Shown one piece after another: positions 21,282 through 33,733 of a stretch of DNA of 64,000 nucleotides; position 1 is the stretch's first letter; every line of letters starts with the position of its first letter. This stretch comes from a virus. The position numbers and the translations under genes are program-made. Under the pieces are notes generated by a model. The model worked only from the letters and a program-made list of their open reading frames with translations. It was not told the origin of the DNA and searched no databases. The stretch is from the IMG/VR virus record IMGVR_UViG_3300024999_000055, positions 1-64,000 of that record, one strand, 5' to 3'.

Positions 21282-22205
21282 ATGTTAACAATAAACCTAC
21301 TTCCTGGTCATGGAATTAGTAATATTAAAGGAATACCTTATGATCCTGGAGCCACGAACAAAAATCGTACGAAAGAAGCAAAAGGAAATGAAATATTAGC
21401 AAATAAATTAAAATTTAAATTAGAGTTTAATGGTTTTAAAGTTAATCTATTAAATGATAGAGATGTAAATGCACAAATTAATTTTGTAAATAATAATAAA
21501 TGTGATTTAGCAATTTCATTACATTTTAACGCATCTAATGAAAAAGTATCTGGTATAGAAGTATTATATTCAGATGTAGCACCAGGATATAATAAAAATA
21601 CTACTTTAAAATTTGCTGATATATTATTAAATCAACTAGTAAAAGATACTGGATTAACAAATCGTGGAGTAAAATTAATAAATTCTGGTGTTGGCATAAT
21701 AAAACGTACAAAATATCCAACAGTTTTGAGTGAGAATGGTTTCATTGATCATCCAACAGAATATTTATGGGCAAAAGACGATGATAAATTAGAAATTCTT
21801 GCTATTGCACATTGTAAATCAGTTTGTGAATATTTTAGAATTGAATATAAAGATAATAAAATTAATAAGGAGATTGATAGTAATATGACAATATTACAAA
21901 CAAAAAATTCTATACAATTTAACTACAATGGAGAAAATAAAGAAGTAGAGAATTACATAATTAATGACACCAGTTACGTTAAAACAAGAGATATTATAGA
22001 TTTATTCTCAAAAATATTGAATTATGATGCAGATAATAGAATTGTTAACATAAAGGATAATACTGTAAAAATTGATGTAAATAATAAAATATTAGATGGA
22101 ATATTAATTGATGATAAGACTTACTCACCTATCCGTCCTCTATGCCAAGAATTAGGTAAAAGTGTTGATTATGATGTGATTGAGAAGAAAGTTATTGTAA
22201 AATAA
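21282..22205 (+). CDS. Endolysin, N-acetylmuramoyl-L-alanine amidase (Amidase_3) with stalk-type C-terminal domain
   Basis: 'LLPGHG..DPGA..E', 'ISLHFNA', 'VLSENGFID'. Confidence 0.9.
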   Translation: MLTINLLPGHGISNIKGIPYDPGATNKNRTKEAKGNEILANKLKFKLEFNGFKVNLLNDRDVNAQINFVNNNKCDLAISLHFNASNEKVSGIEVLYSDVAPGYNKNTTLKFADILLNQLVKDTGLTNRGVKLINSGVGIIKRTKYPTVLSENGFIDHPTEYLWAKDDDKLEILAIAHCKSVCEYFRIEYKDNKINKEIDSNMTILQTKNSIQFNYNGENKEVENYIINDTSYVKTRDIIDLFSKILNYDADNRIVNIKDNTVKIDVNNKILDGILIDDKTYSPIRPLCQELGKSVDYDVIEKKVIVK

Positions 22206-22223: not shown

Positions 22224-22583
22224 GTGTGTTCTATTATGGAACGGTTTATTACTATGGAAAATCTAACAACCATGAGTGGCCTCATATTAGTAATAGTACT
22301 ACTAACACAAAATTTTAAGGAAATTATAGATAACATTTATTTTAAATCATTTGGTAAAACATTGTCTACAAAATACCTAGTTTTCGTAATTAGTCAGGGA
22401 TTGCTTTTTTTAAGTAAATACCTTTTAGGAACTGATTTTAATGGACAAGAAATATTAATTAACTTTATAAATGGATGTATTCTTAGTGGCGTTGCAGTTA
22501 AATCAGTCGAAACATTAATGAATAAGAATAATAGTGATAGTAATGTTAAATCCAATGAAAATATTAGTGAAGATGTAAAATAA
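22224..22583 (+). CDS. Putative holin
   Basis: Three hydrophobic segments, charged C-terminus, follows endolysin; start probably ATG 22236. Confidence 0.7.
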   Translation: MCSIMERFITMENLTTMSGLILVIVLLTQNFKEIIDNIYFKSFGKTLSTKYLVFVISQGLLFLSKYLLGTDFNGQEILINFINGCILSGVAVKSVETLMNKNNSDSNVKSNENISEDVK

Positions 22584-23044: not shown

Positions 23045-24505
23045 ATATCATTACAAACAAAATCAATAAAATTTCACCTAAATGAGAAAGTTAATAAATC
23101 TAAAAATGAAAATATAATAGAGTTTCTAAAAGAATGTCAACAAGTAGAAAATTATCTATTAGAATATTATTGGGAGCATTTTGATACTATAATCAAATCT
23201 AGAAATAAAATAGATATGAATTATAATAATAAAATAAATTTTAGGGATACAGTTCCAATATTAAAATCTCATCATTTTTACACTGTGCTAGGACAATGTT
23301 TTTGGCAATTAAAATCTTTGCAGTCTAATATACAAAACAAAATTTATTTTAAAGATGAAGATAAGATTAAACAAAGAGTATATAACTACTGTAAACCATT
23401 TATATTTCAGTGGAATAAATTACATAAAAATGTATTAAAACAAAGTAATAAAGATAAGAAAAATAAAGAATATCAAGAATTTATTAATAATGTATTAATA
23501 TATTTAAATGATGAACAATTATTCAATCAAATGAAACAAGATATTGAGAATCGTTTTTGGAAAATTAAGTCTAATTATAAAATTCCTCAAAAGAAAGAAT
23601 TGCAGATTTGGGTTGATACATATTTAACTACAAAAATAGAAAAGAAAGAATTTGATTGGTTTTTTATTATTAGCAAAAATCAAAAACGTACTAAAAAGAT
23701 TTATGACAATATGGTAATTCCTGTAAAATTATCAGAATATCATAAAAAAACATTGGAAGGAAAAACTATTAAAAATAGTTTAAATTTAAAATTAAATAAG
23801 TATGGCAAAATTGAAATTACCGTAGTATATGAAGAAGAAATTAATTATCCAGAATCATATCCTAAAGATATACTTGGTATTGACATTGGATTAAAAAGAC
23901 TTATAACTGATTCTAATGGTGAGTTTATAAAACAAAATGTAAATATTATTAAAAAGGTAAATAATATTGTAAATAAGCAATCTAATAGACAAACATTAGA
24001 AGAACATTTAAAGGTTAAATATAATAATAATGATTTTAGACTAAAGGATAAAAGATATTTAAGACAACAAACAAAAGTATCTGATTATGTTAAAAATAAT
24101 AATAGATATAAAATAAAACAATATCTTAAATCACATACTGATTATCATATTATTATGGAAGATATCAAATTAAGAGATTCTAAAACATATGATAAAAAGA
24201 CTAATTATTTATTAAGAAGACTTCATATACAACATTTAAAGCAAGATATTTTTGGATATGCTAAAAAATTAGGGATTGGAGTTACTTTAATTAATCCTGC
24301 ATTTACAAGTCAACAATGCCCTATCTGTGGTCATATTAGTAAAGATAATCGTAAAACACAAGAGACGTTCTGTTGTGTGAAATGTGGTCATGAAAATAAT
24401 GCTGATGTAAATGCAAGTATAAATATTAAGAATAGATTATTTGAAAAAAGAATAAAACTTAATACTCCATTTTGGAAGGTAAAACAAATACTTCAAATGA
24501 AGTAA
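23045..24505 (+). CDS. tnpB: TnpB/Cas12f-like RNA-guided nuclease (RuvC D-E-D intact, Zn finger)
   Basis: 'ILGIDIG','IIMEDI','TSQQCPICG..CVKCG..NADVNASINI'; frame extends to ATA 23045 behind GGAGGTG (486 aa); no tnpA nearby. Confidence 0.85.
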   Translation: MSLQTKSIKFHLNEKVNKSKNENIIEFLKECQQVENYLLEYYWEHFDTIIKSRNKIDMNYNNKINFRDTVPILKSHHFYTVLGQCFWQLKSLQSNIQNKIYFKDEDKIKQRVYNYCKPFIFQWNKLHKNVLKQSNKDKKNKEYQEFINNVLIYLNDEQLFNQMKQDIENRFWKIKSNYKIPQKKELQIWVDTYLTTKIEKKEFDWFFIISKNQKRTKKIYDNMVIPVKLSEYHKKTLEGKTIKNSLNLKLNKYGKIEITVVYEEEINYPESYPKDILGIDIGLKRLITDSNGEFIKQNVNIIKKVNNIVNKQSNRQTLEEHLKVKYNNNDFRLKDKRYLRQQTKVSDYVKNNNRYKIKQYLKSHTDYHIIMEDIKLRDSKTYDKKTNYLLRRLHIQHLKQDIFGYAKKLGIGVTLINPAFTSQQCPICGHISKDNRKTQETFCCVKCGHENNADVNASINIKNRLFEKRIKLNTPFWKVKQILQMK

Positions 24506-24610
24506 ACTTTATTCGGCTGCATTGTAAAGCCTACGGTTAAGCGTACTTTAGTACAGACACCGTTTGAATCAAATAGAAATATTTGAATACAATTGTTGTT
24601 TGGTTATGAT
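24506..24610 (+). ncRNA. Putative omega/guide RNA of TnpB-1
   Basis: Three consecutive hairpins (GGCT..AGCC; ACGGT..GTAC-TTTA-GTAC..ACCGT; TCAAATA-GAAA-TATTTGA) right after the stop codon. Confidence 0.6.
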
Positions 24611-24925
24611 ATTTTAGGTTGAGTTAAATTTAAGTGTAATTTAGGATAAATTTCATAGCCTATAAACTGTTGTATTATAAGGGTTTGTAGGTTGGGTAAA
24701 TTTGGAATATTAATAAATAAACGATATTTTATGGCTATTTCGAGGGTTGATTTTGATTAGGATAAAATGTGTGTTGAAGGAATTTGAGTGGTTTATTTGG
24801 GTGAAATATGGAGTTTGTTTTTGATTTTTGGTTTTTATATGGGTGATATTAAAATAAATATTTCTATAGAAAATAAGGCATCTCTTTTAGAGGTGCTTCT
24901 TTTTGTGTGGAAATAATTTACACAG

Positions 24926-25003
24926 TAAGCAGACTAGGATAGGCCATCCAAAAGATAGTATTCCTTAACTATTTGTCTGCTTATAGATTTTTTTATTAAG
25001 GAA
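24926..25003 (+). ncRNA. Structured leader RNA copy 1 (three-way junction, AGGCC loop, predicted pseudoknot)
   Basis: TAAGCAGAC/GTCTGCTTA; GGAT-AGGCC-ATCC; loop TTCCTTAA complementary to TTAAGGAA 24996-25003. Confidence 0.6.
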
Positions 25004-25024
25004 AACAAAATAATATTAAAGGAG

Positions 25025-26977
25025 ATGTTAAAAATGAATTATGAAAAGTATTTTACATCATTAGATTCAACAAAGAAAGAAAATTTTATTAATGATGTAG
25101 TTAATTTAACAATCAAGGATTTAGTAAGTTATGGTAATGTGATTAGTGATGAAAAATACACAGAATCATTAAAAATTATTGCAGATAATATTATGTTTTA
25201 TGATAACAATAAAATTATAAATGCAATTAATTTTCCTACTGGCTGTGGCAAAACGACAATAATGATAAATAGTATTGCATATATGGTTAATAATAAAGAA
25301 TTATTGCCTTATTCTGGTACAATAATATTAAGATTATATAAAAGTGATTGTGATGATACAGCAAGTGCCATTAATAAAAAGGTCAAGAAAAATGTTGCCT
25401 ATAGTTTTCATAGTGGAGATAACAAAAATAGAATAAATAATGAAGATTTATCTACTTATCCAATTGTAGTAATGACACATGAAGGATTTAAAACACTAAT
25501 AAAAAATAATGATTTAGAAAGATTGCAATGTTGGGCAAATAAAAAGAGAAATAGAATAACAAAAGAATATAATAAATTTTATAGACAAAGATTGATTATT
25601 GATGAAGAGATTAAAAATGTAAGATTCTTTGAAGTAAATATTAAAACTATAAATAATTTAGAAAATTGTATTATGAATCTTGGAAATAATGATTTATACG
25701 ATGAATTTATTGAATTTATTATTAAGATTAAAAGAGAATTTTTAAAGCCATATGCGATCCAGAAAAATAAGATGTTTTTTATCACCCTTGATAATATAGT
25801 TGTGCCTGAAAAATTAGATGAAGTAATTTATGATTCTAAAGATAAAATAGCACAAGAAAGTTTATTAAGTATCCATAATTTACTTGAACATGGTGGATAT
25901 TTAAGATATAGTGATGAAATTGAGCATAAAAGTATAGTAACATTTCAATATATTGATATTAATTCTCCTTTATTTAGTCAAATTGCTTTAGATGCAACAA
26001 GTGGAATTAATCATTTATATAAAATAAATAAAGATTATAATGTAATTAATTTACCAATAATAAAAAATTATAATAATACATATATAAATATATTCAATGG
26101 AATTACAGGTAGTAGAAAATCTATAGGAGATAATTTAGAAGAAGGATTATTAGATAAATTCGTTGAGTATATAGAAAATAATATCGTAGAAACAGATAAA
26201 GTATTAATAATATTAAATAAAAAAGATTATGAAGCACCTATTAAAAAAAGATTTAAAGATTACATATATCTTGAAAATTTAATTTTTACATACTATGGAT
26301 TAACTACTGGAATAAATGATTATGCAGAATGTAATAAATTATTTTCTTTAGGGATACCTCTTATGGACGATCCTTGTACTCCCTTATTATATTTTTTATC
26401 AACAATAGAAATTGATAAATTAAAACCTGATAATTTTAATTCTATGGATACTACATTAATACCAAAAAAAGGTGCTAGAAGATTTATTGAAGAAGAATTT
26501 GAGAATATTAGAGTATCACAAACTGCTTCAGTAGTTACTCAAGCAATTAATAGAATATCATGTAGACAATATATTAAAGGAGATACACCACTTACTTATA
26601 TTTTTCTTATAAATAAGGATAAAGAGATAGATAATTTAATATCAATATCTATGCCAGGAGTTAATATTAGTTATGATTGGAAATTAGATTTTGAAGATAA
26701 GAAAGGAAATATTAAAACTAGAAAAATTACACCTGAAGAAAAGTTGATTCATGTGATGCAGAGAATTATTGAAGATGAAGAATATAGAAATGAATTAATT
26801 GAAAAGAAAATGTATAGTGTGGATAAAGGGATTAAAAAGAGTAAGTTAAGAGAATTAGCAGATATGGGAAATAGAGTGGCATATAACGATGCTATGAAGA
26901 AACCACTTATGGAACAATTTATTAAAGATTATAATTTGACCATTAATAGTACAGATAAATGCATAAAATTAATTTAA
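25025..26977 (+). CDS. SF2 helicase-like protein (possible origin-binding/initiator)
   Basis: Walker A 'FPTGCGKTT', 'VVMTH', Walker B 'LIIDEE', 'LDATS', 'GINDY', 'QAINRISCR'. Confidence 0.8.
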   Translation: MLKMNYEKYFTSLDSTKKENFINDVVNLTIKDLVSYGNVISDEKYTESLKIIADNIMFYDNNKIINAINFPTGCGKTTIMINSIAYMVNNKELLPYSGTIILRLYKSDCDDTASAINKKVKKNVAYSFHSGDNKNRINNEDLSTYPIVVMTHEGFKTLIKNNDLERLQCWANKKRNRITKEYNKFYRQRLIIDEEIKNVRFFEVNIKTINNLENCIMNLGNNDLYDEFIEFIIKIKREFLKPYAIQKNKMFFITLDNIVVPEKLDEVIYDSKDKIAQESLLSIHNLLEHGGYLRYSDEIEHKSIVTFQYIDINSPLFSQIALDATSGINHLYKINKDYNVINLPIIKNYNNTYINIFNGITGSRKSIGDNLEEGLLDKFVEYIENNIVETDKVLIILNKKDYEAPIKKRFKDYIYLENLIFTYYGLTTGINDYAECNKLFSLGIPLMDDPCTPLLYFLSTIEIDKLKPDNFNSMDTTLIPKKGARRFIEEEFENIRVSQTASVVTQAINRISCRQYIKGDTPLTYIFLINKDKEIDNLISISMPGVNISYDWKLDFEDKKGNIKTRKITPEEKLIHVMQRIIEDEEYRNELIEKKMYSVDKGIKKSKLRELADMGNRVAYNDAMKKPLMEQFIKDYNLTINSTDKCIKLI

Positions 26978-26988
26978 ATAATATAAAA

Positions 26989-27033
26989 ATCGTAAGGTTA
27001 CTCATATAAGTATATATACAGTAACCTTACGAT
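26989..27033. repeat. 14-bp perfect inverted repeat between helicase and HNH genes
   Basis: ATCGTAAGGTTACT-N17-AGTAACCTTACGAT, no U-tract. Confidence 0.8.
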
Positions 27034-27063
27034 AAATTATTAATATAATATCGGAGGTAAAAT

Positions 27064-27927
27064 ATGAATAACATAGAAGATATGTCTTTAAATCAATTCA
27101 ACAATTATTTAAATGAATTAATTAATCAGTTTGTTGAATCGCATCAAGAAGAATACCAAGAAGGTAAAATTAATTATTTTTTAAATAAGAAAATTAAAAA
27201 TATAAGTAATATAGATACAATAACTATAATTAAAGATGTTCCTTTGGATGTATATATAAGAAATTTAAAAGAAATTAGAATTTGGAGAAATAATATAATT
27301 AAAAAATATAATGGTAAATGTTTTATTTCAGGAGAAACTTATGACGAAGTACACCATATAACTTCATTTTTAGCATGTATGGTAGATACTTTGAATGAAT
27401 TAGGGTTAGATAGGAGAAAATATATTGCTGATTATAGTGAAGAAGAATTAGATAATATAACTAATATTTTTATTGAAAAACATAAAAATATAGATGCTAT
27501 ATTATTAACACAGAAATTGCATTATGAATTTCATTATATTTTCGGCAAATATTGTTTTGATGAAAAAGATTTAGAATTGTTTATTAAATATAAAAATAAT
27601 GAAATAGAATTAGATATAAGAAAGATACAAAAAGAAAAATATAAAGAATTTAAAAATAATATTAAAACATATAAACCTTTGTCACCAGAAAATATATTAT
27701 TTAATATTTTAAATAAAATTATTAATGATGAAGATTATAAACAGCAATTAATTAAATCCAATATGTATGATAAAAACAAAGGAATTACTAAAACAAAATT
27801 AAGAGAATTAAGTAATATAAATAGTAGAACAACATTTAAAAGAGTAATGAGTGGTGAATTAATAGAAAATTTATTTAAAAATAATAATATTACATATGGC
27901 AATAATGATCATTATATAAAATTTTAA
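27064..27927 (+). CDS. HNH-family nuclease fused to a C-terminal domain shared with the upstream helicase
   Basis: 'KCFISG..EVHHITSF..LHYEFHYIFG'; C-terminal 80 aa align to helicase C-terminus. Confidence 0.7.
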   Translation: MNNIEDMSLNQFNNYLNELINQFVESHQEEYQEGKINYFLNKKIKNISNIDTITIIKDVPLDVYIRNLKEIRIWRNNIIKKYNGKCFISGETYDEVHHITSFLACMVDTLNELGLDRRKYIADYSEEELDNITNIFIEKHKNIDAILLTQKLHYEFHYIFGKYCFDEKDLELFIKYKNNEIELDIRKIQKEKYKEFKNNIKTYKPLSPENILFNILNKIINDEDYKQQLIKSNMYDKNKGITKTKLRELSNINSRTTFKRVMSGELIENLFKNNNITYGNNDHYIKF

Positions 27928-28086
27928 TATTAATTTATGTAGTTACATAGAAAATTACCCTTTTTGCATTTTCTATTACAGAGTGAATCCTACTTTTTTA
28001 TATATGATTTTACATATTTGGCAATAAATAATTTTAAATTTTACCTTATCAAACCAATTGAAAATTTTTACTTGCCAAAGGCATCC

Positions 28087-28196
28087 TCTTAATATTATAG
28101 AATTTCATTACACTTCGCTACACTTACGTTTCGCTACGTTCCATTTCATTCTATAATATTAAGATTGTCCTTATTAATTTTCGCTTATAGCGAAAA
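28087..28196. other. Origin-like structured non-coding region
   Basis: 17-bp perfect IR around a 44-nt loop with TTCGCTAC repeats, then TTTTCGCT-TAT-AGCGAAAA hairpin. Confidence 0.45.
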
Positions 28197-28285
28197 GTTA
28201 ATTCGTCCAAATTAGAATTTTATTGTTTTTTATTAGATTGGTATTTGATAGATAGTATTAGATTAATAATATAGTAACAAGGAGA

Positions 28286-28519
28286 TTGATAATGAACAAT
28301 TTACTAGAATTAGAATCTACAGAAGAATGTAAATATTGCTCTGCTTCAAATATTCTAATGTCCTCCTCTACATCATCTAACTTCAAAGATAAAGAATATT
28401 TCTTATATTTTCAGAATAATAATTTGAGTTTGTTTGAGGGTGGTGAGGAAGGAATGGTAGTTTTGGATGAGATTAGGATTGGGTATTGCATGTTTTGTGG
28501 TAGGGAATTGTTTGGTTGA
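28286..28519 (+). CDS. Small Zn-binding hypothetical protein
   Basis: CKYC..YCMFCGREL; SD AAGGAG. Confidence 0.65.
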   Translation: MIMNNLLELESTEECKYCSASNILMSSSTSSNFKDKEYFLYFQNNNLSLFEGGEEGMVVLDEIRIGYCMFCGRELFG

Positions 28520-28622
28520 GGTTGTTTAATTGGTTATTAGACTAATAAAATAAATATTTATATTTTAATAGAGCATAATTTCTGCTCTATTTTTTTTATT
28601 TTTAAGGAGGTTTAATTATAAT

Positions 28623-29285
28623 TTGAATAATTTGGAAGTTACAAATATTACATATAATCATACAATACTTCGTGCAACAAATCCAGAATTAAGAAAGCAA
28701 GGTAAAGAATTTATTAATACATATCACTCATACATAAAGTTTTCAGATAGACCATCAAGAAAATTATATTGGAATTTATATGAAAATGGTGAAATGGTAG
28801 GAGTATTTGCATTAGGGAGTGCTTTTTCACATTCTAAAATAGTAAAAGAATATATGATAAATAACAATTTACAATTTAATGAAGTGGCAAATAATATTGT
28901 CTATTGTTTGGCAAATTGTGAAAATAAAAATGCAGGTACAATATTTTTAAAATTATGTAGACAAGATGCTATTAAGTGGTGGAATGAAAGATATGGAGAT
29001 TATTTAAAAGCATTTCAAACTTTTATACTTCCACCAAGAATAGGTGCTATATACAAAGCAGATAATTGGAGTTTAATTGGTGAGACAATTGGAAATTCTC
29101 AAAAAACTAAAAACATAAGACCAGATAAAATTGATCAATATAAAAATGTACAGAAGAAAACATTCAAAGATGGTAGAGTGGAATATTGTATATATATCGA
29201 AAATAAAGTAGAACCAAAATTAATATTTATGAAATTAGTTAAGGATAAAGAATTGAAAAGAATATTGGGAATTAAGAATTTATAG
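28623..29285 (+). CDS. Mom/DUF4338-like GNAT-fold protein (putative DNA modification)
   Basis: 'FINTYHSY', 'VGVFALGS', 'FQTFI..GAIYKADNWSLIGETIG'. Confidence 0.6.
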   Translation: MNNLEVTNITYNHTILRATNPELRKQGKEFINTYHSYIKFSDRPSRKLYWNLYENGEMVGVFALGSAFSHSKIVKEYMINNNLQFNEVANNIVYCLANCENKNAGTIFLKLCRQDAIKWWNERYGDYLKAFQTFILPPRIGAIYKADNWSLIGETIGNSQKTKNIRPDKIDQYKNVQKKTFKDGRVEYCIYIENKVEPKLIFMKLVKDKELKRILGIKNL

Positions 29286-29398
29286 TTTAAATTGATATAT
29301 TTTTAAAATTGAATTTGAATTGAATATTTAAATTTAATATTTGAGTTTTTTTAGAGTGGGCAAATTATCTGCTCTTTTTTGTTTTGTAGTTTTATATG

Positions 29399-29529: not shown

Positions 29530-30609
29530 TTGGTGATAATTATGGGATTGATTACTAAAGAGATTGAAATTAAATGTAGTCCAAATAATAAATATTTAAT
29601 TGAAAAAGGTTATGATTGGAAATATAGTAAAAGCATAATCATAAATATAGATGATTTATCTAAAAGTAGTCATAAAGAAATAGAAATACAATGTGATATT
29701 TGTAAAAATACTATTATGAATAAACCATATAGAGATCATTTAAAATTAATGAAAAATAATCCAGATCATATTTATTATTGTGATAATTGTTTTTTAGAAA
29801 AAATAAGAAAAGAATTTGATGATAAAGATTTAATATTAATTAGTGACAAATATATAAATTGTTTTGAAAAATTAGAATTTATATGTAAAACACATATTGA
29901 TGCAGGTATACAATATGTTCCTTATAGTAGATTTAAAAGTAAAAATCAAGGTTGTAAAATATGTAGTAGATTAATTAAAAATGAAATTTATAAATTAGAT
30001 TTTAATTATATAAAATTTATATGTAATATTAAAGATTATATGTTATTAACTGATGAATATATAAATGGAAGAATAAAAATGCCATATATTTGTAGAAAAC
30101 ATTCAGATGAAATACAATATGCTACAGCATATCAATTAATTTATAATGAAAATACCTGTAAACATTGTATTAATGAAAATAGAAGTGGAATTAATCATCC
30201 TTGTTGGAAAGGTGGAGAAACACCTTTATATGAACATTTAAGAAATAAATTAGAACAATGGAAATTTGATTCTTTGAAAAATTCTGATTTTAAATGTGTG
30301 GTAACTGGTAAACGTGCAACAAACAAATATAAAGTTCATCATTTATTATCTTTTCATACAATTTTACAAATTATATTAGATAAATATAATATACCTAGAA
30401 GTAAAAAATTAAATGAATTCACAGCAAAAGAATTAAATATTATAGAAGACGATTTTTTAAAAGAACATAAATTATTAGGTGTTTGTTTGCACCCTGAAAT
30501 ACATAAATTATATCATCATCTCTATTCATATTGGAATAATACACCTGAACAATTTGAAGAATTTAAAATAAGATATAAATTTGGAGAGTTTGATAAATTA
30601 ATATTATAA
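29530..30609 (+). CDS. Free-standing HNH endonuclease with Cys/His Zn repeats
   Basis: 'CDIC','YICRKH','HPCWKGG','KCVVTG..KVHHLLSF..CLHPEIHKLYH..NNTPEQFEEF'. Confidence 0.8.
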   Translation: MVIIMGLITKEIEIKCSPNNKYLIEKGYDWKYSKSIIINIDDLSKSSHKEIEIQCDICKNTIMNKPYRDHLKLMKNNPDHIYYCDNCFLEKIRKEFDDKDLILISDKYINCFEKLEFICKTHIDAGIQYVPYSRFKSKNQGCKICSRLIKNEIYKLDFNYIKFICNIKDYMLLTDEYINGRIKMPYICRKHSDEIQYATAYQLIYNENTCKHCINENRSGINHPCWKGGETPLYEHLRNKLEQWKFDSLKNSDFKCVVTGKRATNKYKVHHLLSFHTILQIILDKYNIPRSKKLNEFTAKELNIIEDDFLKEHKLLGVCLHPEIHKLYHHLYSYWNNTPEQFEEFKIRYKFGEFDKLIL

Positions 30610-30656: not shown

Positions 30657-31922
30657 CTAACCAATATTCTGTTTCTCTAAAGTTTCTTTTACTAATTCAT
30701 TAAATGCGTTTTCATCAGTAACAAATGTGCTAAATACTTTTCTTACGAAACTTTGCTGTGGTGAACCATTAACTAACCTTCCAGCACCATTCTTAACATA
30801 ATTCCATAAGGGGTTGTTTTTATCAAGTAATTTTCCTGTAAATTCACCTATTTTAATTGGTTGTTTTAATTTTCTAAGTTTTTCCTTCCAATTTTCATCT
30901 CTATATAATGCCTTTGCAACAGAGATATACCCATGCCAAAATAATAATTCTAAACTATAATCTCTTTCTCTCATAATTTTTCTTTCGGAAATATCCATAT
31001 CACTCATAGAGTAACTAAAGATATATACTAAATTATCCATGAATTCAATAAGATATGAAGCAATTTCTTGACTTTCAATTTTAGTTTTTGGCTTAAATTG
31101 ATTATCAATTTGTGTACTAAGAATAGAGAAACTAACAATATTATTTGTTGACTTGATACTAGATAAGTATGTCTCTACCTTATTTTTAAGTTCACTTTTC
31201 TTTATTAATTCAGTTGTAATATAATTCTTCCAACTTCCAATATCTAGAAATTCTGATCTAACCTTGCTAATTTTTGCATTTTTTGTCGATTCAGCGAACA
31301 TACGTTTTGAGTCATCCATCGAGCAAATAATCAGAGAAATTGGAAATTCATATTTTTCAGGATCAATCATACCTTCTTTATTTCGTTTGATTTTATTCCA
31401 TAATTCATTTATTATTTTAGCTGCTGCTGTGCGATGCATTCCGTCAGTCAAAAATATGGGTAAATTTGAAAATATTGTATTACTATCATTATCAAATTCA
31501 AATTTAGCATTTTCTTTTTCAAGATATTTATCAATTATTACCCAATTTAATGTACCACCAAAAAATTCATTTTTCTTAATATGTTCCACTATTTCCCTAA
31601 TTTTTACTGTATTGATCAATGGAGAATCAATTCCAGATGTTGATGTTTTTTTGCCTCTTTGAATCTCAGGCATATATTGCAATGTTTCCATATCCATTAA
31701 TTTGCAAATTTCTGATATTGGCAAACTGAAATTATAAGAAAATATTTCATTATTACGGTAAATAGGAAGTACGGAATGTATCTCCCAATCTTGACGGATA
31801 TCTTTTTCTCCTACAAATATACCTATCTTATTCTTCTTTGGTAATTCTTTATTTGTATTCACATCCACCCCATTAACTCCATCAACATCCATATTTCCAA
31901 TCTCCTTCTCAGCAACACTCAT
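30657..31922 (-). CDS. DGQHR/DndB-like (ParB-related) domain protein
   Basis: 'YMPEIQRG', 'FLTDGMHRTAA', 'KRMFAE'. Confidence 0.75.
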   Translation of the reverse strand: MSVAEKEIGNMDVDGVNGVDVNTNKELPKKNKIGIFVGEKDIRQDWEIHSVLPIYRNNEIFSYNFSLPISEICKLMDMETLQYMPEIQRGKKTSTSGIDSPLINTVKIREIVEHIKKNEFFGGTLNWVIIDKYLEKENAKFEFDNDSNTIFSNLPIFLTDGMHRTAAAKIINELWNKIKRNKEGMIDPEKYEFPISLIICSMDDSKRMFAESTKNAKISKVRSEFLDIGSWKNYITTELIKKSELKNKVETYLSSIKSTNNIVSFSILSTQIDNQFKPKTKIESQEIASYLIEFMDNLVYIFSYSMSDMDISERKIMRERDYSLELLFWHGYISVAKALYRDENWKEKLRKLKQPIKIGEFTGKLLDKNNPLWNYVKNGAGRLVNGSPQQSFVRKVFSTFVTDENAFNELVKETLEKQNIG

Positions 31923-32149: not shown

Positions 32150-33733
32150 ATGAAAAAAGATTTAATTTCCGCCGTAGCATACTGTCGGGTGTCAACTAAA
32201 TCTACTGATCAAAAAAATAGTTATGATGCACAAATTAAATTTTTTAGAGAAAAAGCTGAAGAGTTAGGATATGAATTAGTAAAAGGAATAGGTACTTTTG
32301 GAGATGGTATATTCGCAGATAGGGGAATTAGTGGTAAGGCATTAACTAAAAGAATTGAATTTAAAAAATTAACAGAACAAGTTAAAACTTTAAAATTTAA
32401 AGCAATCCTAGTTACGAATGCAAGTAGACTAGCGAGGAATGCAGTAGATGGAATGAATGTTATTAGAGAAATTAAACCATATGATGCTTATATACATTTT
32501 CTTAAAGAAAATTTAAAAAGTTGTAATCATTCTGATGAATTTTTAATTGATTTTTTTATGATGTTTTCACAAAATGAATTAAGAGAAATGTCTAAAAAAA
32601 TTCAAGATGGTGTAAGGAAAGCACAAGGCAAAGGTGTATGGACAGCACCCCCACCTTATGGTTATAATCGCTTGAATGGTTATTTACAGATTAATGAAGA
32701 AGAAAAACAAGTTGTTGAATTAATGTTTTTTCTTTATGCAGAAATTGGATATTCTATAGATAAATTAGTACGTGAATTAAATGGTATATGTATTCCTACT
32801 AAAAAAGAAAAGAAATGGCAACATACTACTATTAGACATATTATTGAAAATCCAATTTATACTGGTTTACAAATAAATCATCAGACAGAAATGAAGGATA
32901 TTTTTATTAATTTAATAGAGAAAATTAATGAGCATGGACAGATTAGGAATTATTTTGAACATTTACAGATAATTGATAAAGAAATATTTATTAAGGCACA
33001 AGAGATTAAAAAAGAGCGTTCTCAAATGGTAGAAAACGGAAAAAAATATAGTTCTACCAATGTATTATCGAATATATTTTTTTGTAAGTATTGCAATGCA
33101 AGTATGAAACGTATGCAAAGGTCAGATAAAAAAGGTCAGTTTTATTATGTATGTAGTAATTGTCATAAAGATAGAGCAATTTGTAAATATTACAATTATA
33201 TTAAAGGAGAAGAAGCCTTTGATAAAATTATGAAAGATGTTAAAAGTTTTGCTGAAAATATTAAGGGTAGAACAAATTTAAAAGAATTATATCAGTTTTA
33301 TATAGATAAATACTTAAACAAAAATTTTGTTAATAAATTACCTGAAATAGAATCTGAAATAGAAAGATTAGAAAATCGTAAAAAAAATTATCAAATTATG
33401 AAGGCAGATGGAGAATTATCTAAAAACGATTTTAGTGATAGAATGAATGAAGTTGAAAGTGAATTAAAAAATTTATATAGAAATAGAGATAAGATTTTAA
33501 ATATTGAAAAAGAAATTGAAAATATATGGGATATTTACAATTATTTAATTTCTACTATTCAAAATTTTGATATTAGAAAATCAAGTAATGGTGATATCAA
33601 AAAGATAATTACAAAAGTAGAAATTAAAACTGTTGACAATGAAAAACTAATTGAAGTACAATTGAATAATGGTCTAGAAAAAGATTTCTCCACTATCTCG
33701 AATGAATATAATATGCAATTCATTGATTTTTAG
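32150..33733 (+). CDS. Large serine recombinase (integrase)
   Basis: 'AYCRVST', 'DRGISG', 'SRLARN', 'PPYGY', 'NPIYTG', Zn ribbon CKYC..CSNC, coiled-coil. Confidence 0.95.
   Translation: MKKDLISAVAYCRVSTKSTDQKNSYDAQIKFFREKAEELGYELVKGIGTFGDGIFADRGISGKALTKRIEFKKLTEQVKTLKFKAILVTNASRLARNAVDGMNVIREIKPYDAYIHFLKENLKSCNHSDEFLIDFFMMFSQNELREMSKKIQDGVRKAQGKGVWTAPPPYGYNRLNGYLQINEEEKQVVELMFFLYAEIGYSIDKLVRELNGICIPTKKEKKWQHTTIRHIIENPIYTGLQINHQTEMKDIFINLIEKINEHGQIRNYFEHLQIIDKEIFIKAQEIKKERSQMVENGKKYSSTNVLSNIFFCKYCNASMKRMQRSDKKGQFYYVCSNCHKDRAICKYYNYIKGEEAFDKIMKDVKSFAENIKGRTNLKELYQFYIDKYLNKNFVNKLPEIESEIERLENRKKNYQIMKADGELSKNDFSDRMNEVESELKNLYRNRDKILNIEKEIENIWDIYNYLISTIQNFDIRKSSNGDIKKIITKVEIKTVDNEKLIEVQLNNGLEKDFSTISNEYNMQFIDF

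What the first reader, a model, noticed from the sequence alone, without database searches (positions are those of the whole stretch)
25025..27927. Helicase and adjacent HNH nuclease share a duplicated C-terminal domain
Seen: helicase 'TPEEKLIHVMQRIIEDEEYRNELIEKKMYSVDKGIKKSKLRELADM..IKL' aligns with HNH-protein 'SPENILFNILNKIINDEDYKQQLIKSNMYDKNKGITKTKLRELSNI..IKF'. The HNH core is of the same subfamily as ORF 29530. A 14-bp perfect IR separates the genes. Inference: a nuclease that captured the helicase's putative wHTH specificity domain, so both address the same DNA site. This could be an initiator/nickase pair, a weapon against competitor origins, or a two-gene defence system.
Basis: partly seen in the sequence, partly recalled or inferred. 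Interest (0 to 1): 0.7.

Follow-up and report, generated by a model that had tools for sequence, protein, structure and literature searches.

The report
Phage nuclease carrying a helicase's tail domain
A small HNH nuclease gene inserted behind a phage helicase gene carries a diverged copy of the helicase's 80-residue winged-helix-like tail, and the same tail is also fused to other homing-type nucleases, so it probably serves as their targeting module.

Summary
The last ~80 residues of the 650-aa helicase (25025-26977) and of the 287-aa HNH protein (27064-27927) are homologous (BLASTP E 3e-16, about 40% identity). The 14-bp inverted repeat and the kinship of the HNH core with ORF 29530 are also real.

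The helicase is XPD/DinG-like. Its tail folds as a separate winged-helix-like domain behind a floppy linker, but the fold matches are weak.

Among 1.8 billion representative proteins the domain occurs only at the C-terminus of this helicase family and on small nucleases: two GIY-YIG proteins and two kinds of HNH protein. The nuclease copies nest in different helicase subclades. The fusion is therefore recurrent, not a one-off.

The helicase and nuclease are not an obligate pair. Relatives with 45% identical helicases lack the nuclease. One phage carries both genes 73 kb apart. A ~95% complete phage has the nuclease but no helicase.

The HNH gene is a discrete ~0.9 kb insertion behind the helicase's terminal hairpin. 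Its core is identical across relatives, while its tail is a hot spot of variation.

Best reading (0.55): a free-standing homing-type nuclease that uses a captured helicase domain for targeting. The closest known analogue is phage ICP1's origin-directed nuclease Odn. DNA binding is not shown, and this lineage's copy shows relaxed constraint.

The parts
24876..24898 (+). Terminator-like hairpin upstream of the helicase gene; likely upstream boundary of the transcription unit
   Evidence: Consensus scan
25025..26977 (+). XPD/DinG-like SF2 helicase gene, 650 aa (Walker A PTGCGKT at residues 71-77, DEE at 193-195)
   Evidence: Pfam DEAD/ResIII on residues 58-195 only. AlphaFold model pLDDT 88.7. 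Foldseek best hits are DinG and XPD, E 5.6e-13, TM 0.46. 28 homologs found.
26732..26974 (+). Helicase C-terminal domain (copy A), residues 570-650, behind a floppy linker
   Evidence: Model segments. Conserved across the family. dN/dS 0.11 against L010.
26989..27033 (+). 14-bp perfect inverted repeat (hairpin) right after the helicase stop codon. It is the helicase gene's own 3' hairpin, here without a T-tract.
   Evidence: An equivalent strong hairpin follows the helicase stop in all seven distant relatives L003-L009.
27064..27927 (+). HNH-type nuclease gene, 287 aa, with its own RBS (GGAGG at 27043-27047). It is a discrete insertion compared with the L006 arrangement.
   Evidence: The only near-length homolog cluster is P0029, 91% identical. 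Full-length homolog P0035, 37% identical.
27310..27560 (+). HNH core: a VHH motif, then an inserted helical segment, then H..FH. It has no CxxC zinc pairs.
   Evidence: Aligns with P0036 and P0039, which have CxxC...HH...CxxCH. Homologous to ORF 29530. 100% nucleotide identity across L010, L012 and L013. dN/dS 0.04.
27673..27924 (+). Nuclease C-terminal domain (copy B), homolog of the helicase tail; a hot spot of variation
   Evidence: Model pLDDT 92. 59-78% nucleotide identity to L010, whereas the core is 100%. dN/dS 0.57, and 0.77 in the second half.
27955..28025 (+). T-tract plus conserved motif (ACAGAGTGAATCCTACTTT...TATATATGATTT). In L006 it follows the helicase hairpin directly, so it marks the right edge of the HNH insertion.
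   Evidence: Alignment A7
29530..30609 (+). Second nuclease of the same HNH subfamily; here the non-catalytic extension is N-terminal
   Evidence: phrog_681 endonuclease, phrog_5104

Best explanation
ORF 27064-27927 is a free-standing, homing-endonuclease-like HNH nuclease gene. It sits as a ~0.9 kb cassette between the terminal hairpin of an XPD/DinG-like phage helicase gene and the sequence that normally follows that hairpin. The protein is modular: an HNH catalytic core common among the mobile nucleases of these AT-rich phages, plus a C-terminal ~80-residue winged-helix-like module that derives from the C-terminal domain of this helicase family. That module occupies the position where GIY-YIG and HNH homing enzymes carry their DNA-binding domain.

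Inferred mechanism: the winged-helix module anchors the nuclease on the nucleic-acid feature that such helicase tails recognise, and the tethered HNH core nicks or cuts nearby. The resident nuclease copy and the resident helicase copy are diverged, so the phage probably spares itself and the nuclease acts on other alleles or on rival elements.

Shown: the homology, the domain boundary, the restricted and recurrent distribution, the insertion, and the unequal conservation. Inferred: DNA binding, cleavage and the target.
For: 1. Homology of the two tails: E 3e-16 and E 1.1e-16 in the phage's own record.

2. Restricted, recurrent distribution. A profile search of 1.84 billion representatives found only 21 proteins. 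These are helicase C-termini plus small nucleases: P0032 and P0034 (GIY-YIG; P0034 passes the Pfam cut-off), P0036 and P0039 (CxxC..HH..CxxCH HNH), P0029 and P0035 (the window's kind of HNH), and one stand-alone 80-aa protein.

3. Repeated capture or exchange. Nuclease-borne copies nest in different helicase subclades. P0036 is sister to helicase P0027 (support 95/91, 75% identity). P0035 and both GIY-YIG copies fall in the P0005-P0013 clade (92/93, 53-60% identity). The window copy is sister to the window's helicase clade (92/82).

4. Module position. The closest GIY-YIG relative of P0032 (L014 5953-6762, 50% identical nuclease domain) carries Pfam HTH_40/HTH_38 helix-turn-helix matches (sub-threshold, 23.4 and 16.8 bits against a cut-off of 27) where P0032 has the helicase-type domain.

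5. Fold. The domain model has pLDDT 92, and every top structural match is a winged-helix domain (La motif, GntR, CRP, E2F, RepA_N initiators), but scores are weak.

6. Insertion. In syntenic L006 the helicase hairpin is followed directly by the T-tract/motif and the 77-aa gene homolog. In the window the HNH gene lies between them.

7. Mobile-nuclease signature. The HNH core is 100% identical across relatives whose helicases are 92-97% identical. dS is 0.09 for the core against 0.27 for the helicase, and core dN/dS is 0.04.

8. The fusion works without the helicase next door. P0035 lies 73 kb from the helicase in G002. It is also present in G005 (195 kb, ~95% complete), which has no such helicase.

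9. The helicase neighbourhoods of relatives are full of homing-type nucleases: HNH_repeat, GIY-YIG with NUMOD3, and DUF4379 proteins.
Against: - DNA binding by the domain is not shown. Structural matches are below the level that separates true relatives from a common arrangement (best Z 5.2; Foldseek E 0.86), and winged helices also bind RNA or proteins.
- No sequence family (Pfam, PDB) matches the domain.
- In the window's own lineage the nuclease copy evolves with relaxed constraint: dN/dS is 0.57 overall and 0.77 in the second half, against 0.11 for the helicase copy.
- Relative L013 has lost 11 of the most conserved residues by an in-frame deletion.
- No close relative without the HNH gene was found, so homing is not demonstrated.
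- The window's HNH core has no Pfam match and lacks the zinc cysteines.
Confidence: 0.55

Rival explanations
1. Recruitment module. The winged-helix-like tail binds a protein, such as a replisome or repair hub or the helicase core itself, rather than DNA. Nucleases that carry it are brought to the same partner as the helicase.
For: Several winged-helix classes among the structural matches are protein-binding: cullin WHB, PCI, kleisin, RPA32C and Stn1. The domain hangs on a flexible linker, as docking modules often do.
Against: - The nuclease-domain fusion exists in a near-complete phage without the helicase.
- In the nearest GIY-YIG relative the module position is held by HTH-type (DNA-binding) Pfam matches, both below the Pfam cut-off.
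- Fast exchange of the putative recognition-helix half fits a specificity determinant.
Confidence: 0.17
2. Relic. The nuclease's tail is a translated leftover of a local duplication or of an insertion that displaced a helicase 3' end. The analogy is mobile endonuclease ORFs in fungal mitochondria that carry a spare C-terminal piece of the host gene (from my own knowledge: Paquin et al. 1994, Allomyces atp6). On this view the tail has no function and is decaying.
For: - The gene order (helicase body, tail A, stop, hairpin, nuclease, tail B) is the order that model predicts.
- dN/dS is 0.77 in the second half of tail B.
- L013 has an in-frame 33-bp deletion.
- Homology starts in the linker (NIKT.K), i.e. 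the whole 3' module was copied.
Against: - The frame is open to the native C-terminal YIKF in all four relatives.
- The full-length homolog P0035 (37% identical) keeps the domain far from any helicase, and also in a helicase-less phage.
- Three nuclease classes carry intact copies.
- No second hairpin follows tail B.
- The profile still scores the nuclease copies at E 1e-17 to 1e-24.
Confidence: 0.16
3. Obligate two-gene system. Helicase and HNH nuclease work together, either as an initiator/nickase pair on the nearby hairpins or as a helicase-nuclease defence system.
For: The two genes are adjacent on the same strand between two terminator-like sites, 24876-24898 and 28567-28591. The block is kept together in four close relatives. 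It lies in the accessory zone between the lysis genes and the integrase.
Against: - Seven loci with 44-45% identical helicases have no second copy of the domain within 7 kb.
- Whole-record searches find the helicase alone in G001, G003 and G004.
- The two genes are 73 kb apart in G002, and G005 has the nuclease alone.
- No PADLOC model matches either protein.
Confidence: 0.07

Closest known systems
ICP1 Odn (Gp88), the origin-directed nuclease of Vibrio phage ICP1 (Barth et al. 2021, eLife, PMC8263062)
   Same: A chimeric nuclease whose catalytic domain resembles the phage's own homing-type nucleases. Its other domain is about 40% identical to the DNA-recognition domain of another protein (42% to PLE RepA_N; here ~40% to the helicase tail). 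The donor protein's recognition module is swapped among close relatives. Here the helicase cores are 87-91% identical while tail halves are 38-64% identical.
   Different: - Odn has a T5orf172/GIY-YIG domain and an N-terminal RepA_N domain taken from a satellite's initiator. Here the core is HNH (GIY-YIG in other members), the module is C-terminal, and the donor is an XPD/DinG-like helicase of unknown role.
- Binding and cutting of an origin are shown for Odn. Nothing is shown here.
- The donor gene here sits in the same genome, next door.
Modular free-standing homing endonucleases (I-TevI, I-BmoI, T4 Seg and Mob proteins, I-HmuI)
   Same: Small nuclease core plus a tethered DNA-binding module. 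The gene sits between conserved genes with its own RBS, is more conserved than its flanks, and lies at boundaries of genetic exchange (PMC10448857 is listed under the title 'Nuclease genes occupy boundaries of genetic exchange between bacteriophages'; I did not read it further).
   Different: Their DNA-binding modules are NUMOD, HTH or zinc-finger types, not a domain shared with a neighbouring enzyme. Homing into an allele that lacks the nuclease gene is not demonstrated here.
Phage P4 alpha protein (primase-helicase with a C-terminal winged-helix origin-binding domain). Recalled from my own knowledge, not tested here.
   Same: A helicase with a C-terminal winged-helix domain that gives site specificity.
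   Different: A different helicase superfamily. No sequence or significant structural match was obtained here.
XPD/DinG (Rad3-family) SF2 helicases, including CasDinG
   Same: The overall fold of the helicase body matches: Foldseek E 5.6e-13 to 1e-8, TM about 0.45.
   Different: No conserved four-cysteine Fe-S cluster. Only C109 is nearly invariant in the family. There is an extra C-terminal winged-helix-like domain. Sequence identity is only 9-13%.

Membership tests
HNH (beta-beta-alpha-metal) nuclease superfamily | His-His general-base motif and downstream metal-ligand His or Asn | tested here: met
   VHH at residues 96-98 and H..FH at about 154-160 align with the HH and CxxCH...H motifs of P0036 and P0039.
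HNH (beta-beta-alpha-metal) nuclease superfamily | Match to a curated HNH profile | tested here: inconclusive
   No Pfam, NCBIfam or PHROG hit for the window protein. Indirect links exist: ORF 29530 matches phrog_681 'endonuclease', Geobacillus virus E3 gp11 is annotated 'endonuclease', and the Atlas gives a lead to the T5 nicking endonuclease family at 0.93.
Free-standing homing endonuclease gene | Presence/absence polymorphism at an otherwise conserved site | tested here: inconclusive
   The gene is absent from the same junction in syntenic L006, but that relative's helicase is only 45% identical. No close HNH-less allele was found.
Free-standing homing endonuclease gene | The nuclease gene is more conserved than its flanks and sits at a recombination boundary | tested here: met
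   The core is 100% identical while the helicase is 92-97% identical, and the downstream flank is replaced in L010 and L012.
Free-standing homing endonuclease gene | Cleaves the allele that lacks it | not testable with these tools
   Needs a nuclease assay or a co-infection cross.
Odn-like retargeted chimeric nuclease | Catalytic domain akin to the phage's own homing nucleases, fused to a recognition domain copied from another protein | tested here: met
Odn-like retargeted chimeric nuclease | The donor domain binds a specific DNA site (an origin) that the nuclease then cuts | not testable with these tools
   The fold class is compatible. No binding site has been identified.
Winged helix-turn-helix fold | Significant structural match to solved winged-helix domains | tested here: inconclusive
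   All top hits are winged-helix domains, but the best VIA match has Z 5.2 (rmsd 3.2 over 74 residues) and the best Foldseek E is 0.86.
XPD/DinG-like SF2 helicase | Two RecA-like domains with Walker A/B motifs and inserted accessory domains | tested here: met
XPD/DinG-like SF2 helicase | Four-cysteine Fe-S cluster domain | tested here: not met
   No set of four conserved cysteines appears in the 28-sequence alignment. Some DinG proteins also lack it (from my own knowledge).
Two-gene helicase-nuclease defence system | Conserved co-occurrence of both genes, and a match to known defence models | tested here: not met

The most novel reading that the evidence does not exclude
The helicase tail is a sequence-specific DNA-recognition module, for example for a replication or processing site. 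The nuclease fusions (HNH, GIY-YIG) would then be 'helicase-mimic' weapons that cut the sites recognised by the helicases of rival phages or satellites. That pressure would drive the swapping of the recognition-helix half seen both in helicases and in nucleases. This would be a general, multi-nuclease version of the ICP1 Odn principle, in uncultured groundwater and sediment phages, probably of Clostridia-type hosts.
Probability: 0.22. Interest if true: 0.8.

Novelty: new variant of a known kind. Interest (0 to 1): 0.58.

Why it matters
Only one case is well documented of a phage nuclease retargeted by copying another protein's DNA-recognition domain: ICP1 Odn. Here the same architecture appears repeatedly. 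Three nuclease types carry the tail of one helicase family, and their copies track different helicase subclades. If the tail is a specificity module, two things follow. Domain capture from neighbouring genes would be a common route by which homing nucleases gain new targets. The data would also offer a natural set of matched recognition-domain variants for studying conflicts between phages. It would further assign a first function to the tail of an uncharacterised XPD/DinG-like phage helicase family.

Tried and rejected
Searches and jobs that gave nothing usable:
The contexts of P0002, P0027, P0032, P0034, P0036 and P0039 could therefore not be read.
- Megablast of the block against the phage and plasmid collections gave no match. 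tblastn of the helicase against phages gave no match.
- Viral-contig scans for P0036, P0039, P0034 and the window HNH found nothing.
- The genome-contig scan gave only two short MAG contigs, from Schnuerera sp. and Clostridium sp..
- Sequence searches of the domain against PDB and Pfam gave only chance-level rows.
- Complex prediction on helicase plus HNH protein gave no answer (score 0.00). It counts neither for nor against binding.
- Contigs of four metagenome runs laid on 24600-28600 were fragmentary, and no joint skips the HNH gene. So neither the presence nor the absence of an HNH-less allele is shown.

Ideas considered and rejected or dropped:
- A diversity-generating retroelement as the cause of the variable tail: rejected. 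The record holds only two copies of the domain, and they are about 60% alike in DNA.
- P0035's tail as a mosaic of a window-type first half and a helicase-type second half: not supported. Its first half is at most 44% identical to anything.
- The IR-rich non-coding stretch 28026-28361 as the common target of both tails: weakened. L012 has identical or near-identical tails but a different sequence there.
Full report
**Setting.** The window is the first 64 kb of a 106-kb IMG/VR virus record, estimated 57% complete, with about 24% G+C. Near-identical DNA occurs in groundwater and sediment metagenomes. The few genomic relatives of the helicase come from Clostridia-type organisms: Crassaminicella, Schnuerera and Clostridium MAGs. 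The finding lies in the accessory zone. Upstream are the lysis genes (amidase at 21282, holin-like at 22224) and a TnpB-like gene (23216-24505). Downstream are a Mom-like gene, a second HNH gene, a weak DGQHR-like gene and a serine recombinase at 32150.

**The observation.** BLASTP aligns the end of the 650-aa helicase with the end of the 287-aa HNH protein at E 3e-16. A search of the phage's own record with the helicase tail finds just that second copy, at E 1.1e-16. The DNA copies are only about 60% alike. The HNH core is homologous to the C-terminal part of ORF 29530 (E 5e-10). The 14-bp perfect inverted repeat is at 26989-27002 and 27020-27033 and is far more stable than shuffled sequence (z = -4.5).

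**What the proteins are.**
- The helicase has Pfam DEAD/ResIII matches only in its first RecA domain.
- A model built from 28 homologs is confident (pLDDT 88.7). Its best solved look-alikes are DinG and XPD (E 5.6e-13, TM about 0.46). The family has no conserved Fe-S cysteines.
- Residues 570-650 form a separate domain behind a low-confidence linker at 561-566.
- Folded alone from an 18-row alignment, the nuclease's copy gives pLDDT 92: five helices and a small sheet.
- Foldseek finds nothing significant. Both Foldseek and the exhaustive VIA search list almost only winged-helix domains (RepA_N initiators, LexA, GntR, CRP, La motif, E2F), with best Z 5.2.
- The fold class is therefore probably winged-helix-like. 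The scores are too low to name a family or a ligand.

**Distribution of the domain.** A profile search of 1.84 billion representative proteins returned only 21 hits.
- Most are C-termini of this helicase family or fragments of them.
- The rest are small nucleases:
  - P0032 and P0034: an N-terminal GIY-YIG domain followed by the tail.
  - P0036 and P0039: a CxxC..HH..CxxCH HNH domain followed by the tail.
  - P0029 and P0035: the window's kind of HNH.
- There is also one stand-alone 80-aa protein.

In a maximum-likelihood tree of the domain the nuclease copies are scattered among helicase subclades:
- P0036 is sister to helicase P0027 (support 95/91, 75% identity).
- P0035 and the GIY-YIG copies fall within the P0005-P0013 helicase clade (92/93, 53-60% identity).
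- The window copy is sister to the window's own helicase clade (92/82, ~40% identity).

The domain has therefore moved between helicase genes and nuclease genes several times. This refutes the 'one-off' alternative.

**Is it a pair?** No.
- Seven viral loci with 44-45% identical helicases have no second copy of the domain within 7 kb.
- Whole-record searches find the helicase alone in G001, G003 and G004.
- In G002 the helicase and the nuclease P0035 lie 73 kb apart.
- G005 (195 kb, ~95% complete) has P0035 but no helicase of this family.
- P0035 is homologous to the window protein over its whole length (37% identity). The nuclease-plus-tail architecture is therefore old and works away from the helicase.
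- No PADLOC defence model matches either protein.

**The HNH gene is an insertion.**
- Every helicase gene in the family, including the distant ones, ends with a strong hairpin.
- In syntenic L006 that hairpin is followed at once by a T-tract, a conserved motif and the homolog of the 77-aa gene at 28286.
- In the window the same T-tract and motif lie behind the HNH gene, at about 27955-28025.
- The ~0.9 kb between them holds an RBS and the complete HNH-tail ORF.
- Four close relatives (L010-L013, 92-97% nucleotide identity) keep the helicase-HNH block but differ downstream.

Conservation across that block is uneven:

| Region (window against L010) | dS | dN/dS |
|---|---|---|
| HNH core | 0.09 | 0.04 |
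| Helicase body | 0.27 | 0.04 |
| Helicase tail | 0.34 | 0.11 |
| Nuclease tail | 0.31 | 0.57 |
| Nuclease tail, second half | 0.38 | 0.77 |

- The HNH core (27229-27679) is 100% identical in all of the relatives.
- The nuclease's tail drops to 59-78% nucleotide identity in L010.
- L013 has an in-frame 33-bp deletion that removes the most conserved motif.

A young, strongly constrained nuclease core inside older mosaic flanks is the usual signature of a mobile homing-type nuclease. The neighbourhoods of the distant helicases are also crowded with such genes: HNH_repeat, GIY-YIG with NUMOD3, and DUF4379 proteins.

**How it most likely works.** GIY-YIG and many HNH homing enzymes are two-part proteins, a small catalytic core tethered to a DNA-binding module. 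The helicase-type tail occupies exactly that position in all three nuclease classes. In the closest GIY-YIG relative of P0032 (L014, 50% identical catalytic domain) the same position gives helix-turn-helix Pfam matches (HTH_40, HTH_38), both below the Pfam cut-off. I therefore read the tail as the nuclease's targeting module, captured from helicase genes that lie next to such nucleases.

The second half of the tail, which holds the putative recognition helix, is exchanged as a unit in both kinds of gene:
- Between the window helicase and P0002 the body is 87% identical, the first half of the tail 71-75%, and the second half 38%. Other close helicase pairs behave alike.
- Between the window and L010 nucleases the first half is 85% identical and the second half 53%.

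Where helicase and nuclease share a genome (the window, G002), their tails are only about 40-45% identical. If the module is sequence-specific, the nuclease would then not act where its own helicase binds.

**Closest precedent.** The closest published case is ICP1 Odn. It is a nuclease with a homing-type catalytic domain and a domain 42% identical to the origin-binding RepA_N domain of the PLE satellite. Odn cuts the PLE origin and selects for swapping of the RepA_N/origin module (PMC8263062). The present case differs in three ways: the nuclease class, the donor (an XPD/DinG-like helicase of unknown role, encoded next door), and the lack of any evidence for a target.

**Caveats and rivals.**
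- DNA binding is inferred, not shown. Winged helices can also bind proteins or RNA.
- The relaxed constraint on the window lineage's nuclease tail, and the L013 deletion, could mean this particular copy is decaying. This is the relic rival, and the gene order fits it.
- Against the relic rival: the frame is intact to the native YIKF end in all relatives, the fusion has been kept long-term in P0035 away from any helicase, and no second hairpin follows the nuclease tail.
- A complex prediction of helicase with nuclease gave no verdict and is not used as evidence.

**Verdict.** The 'captured domain' reading is supported. The 'same site', 'initiator/nickase pair' and 'two-gene defence' readings are not. 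I class it as a new variant of a known kind (a modular homing-type nuclease, Odn-like in its domain capture), of moderate to good interest.

Noticed in passing
window 28026-28361 (and 28087-28164): The IR-rich non-coding stretch with a 17-bp perfect inverted repeat is a variable cassette. It is present in the window and in L013 as far as that contig reaches (to 28158). L010 and L012 have other sequence there. Contigs of two metagenome runs join 28026 directly to 28361.
   Followed up: partly
window 28623-29285: The Mom-like gene (Pfam Mom 21.7 bits, below cut-off; phrog_1384 E 2.5e-11) is absent from L010, L011 and L012. In those loci homology jumps from about 28516-28559 to about 29326-29353, so the gene is a separate insertion or deletion.
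   Followed up: partly
L013 (window-equivalent 27776-27808): An in-frame 33-bp deletion in the HNH protein's tail removes NKGITKTKLREL, the most conserved motif of the domain.
   Followed up: yes
L003 5695-6702, L005 1218-2237, L009 5681-6742: In three distant relatives a tyrosine recombinase (Pfam Phage_integrase) lies directly upstream of the helicase gene. In the window a serine recombinase lies 5 kb downstream (32150-33733). The helicase family seems to live at the integrase end of the accessory zone.
   Followed up: no
G005 (record of L016) versus G002 (record of L007 and L015): Two large phage records share a 12.8-kb locus around P0035 with the same ORF set (P0035 is 100% identical in both). 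Only G002 has the XPD/DinG-like helicase, so the helicase gene itself is an accessory, possibly mobile, gene.
   Followed up: partly
window 23216-24505: A TnpB/Cas12f-like gene (Pfam Cas12f1-like_TNB, E 6e-17) lies just upstream of the helicase block. It is absent from the corresponding place in L010 and L011.
   Followed up: no
window 30657-31922 (- strand): A 421-aa protein with a DGMHR motif gives a weak DGQHR/DndB-like match (TIGR03187, E 0.02) and a strong phrog_5732 match (E 4e-39). Homologs are kept in L006 and L008 near the helicase.
   Followed up: no
L010 5745-5960 and L012 3250-3480: The motif GAATCCTACTTTT...ATATGATTT.ACAT.TTTGG, which follows the helicase hairpin or the HNH gene, is repeated two to three times downstream of the HNH gene in L010 and L012. 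It may be a phage promoter or regulatory element.
   Followed up: no
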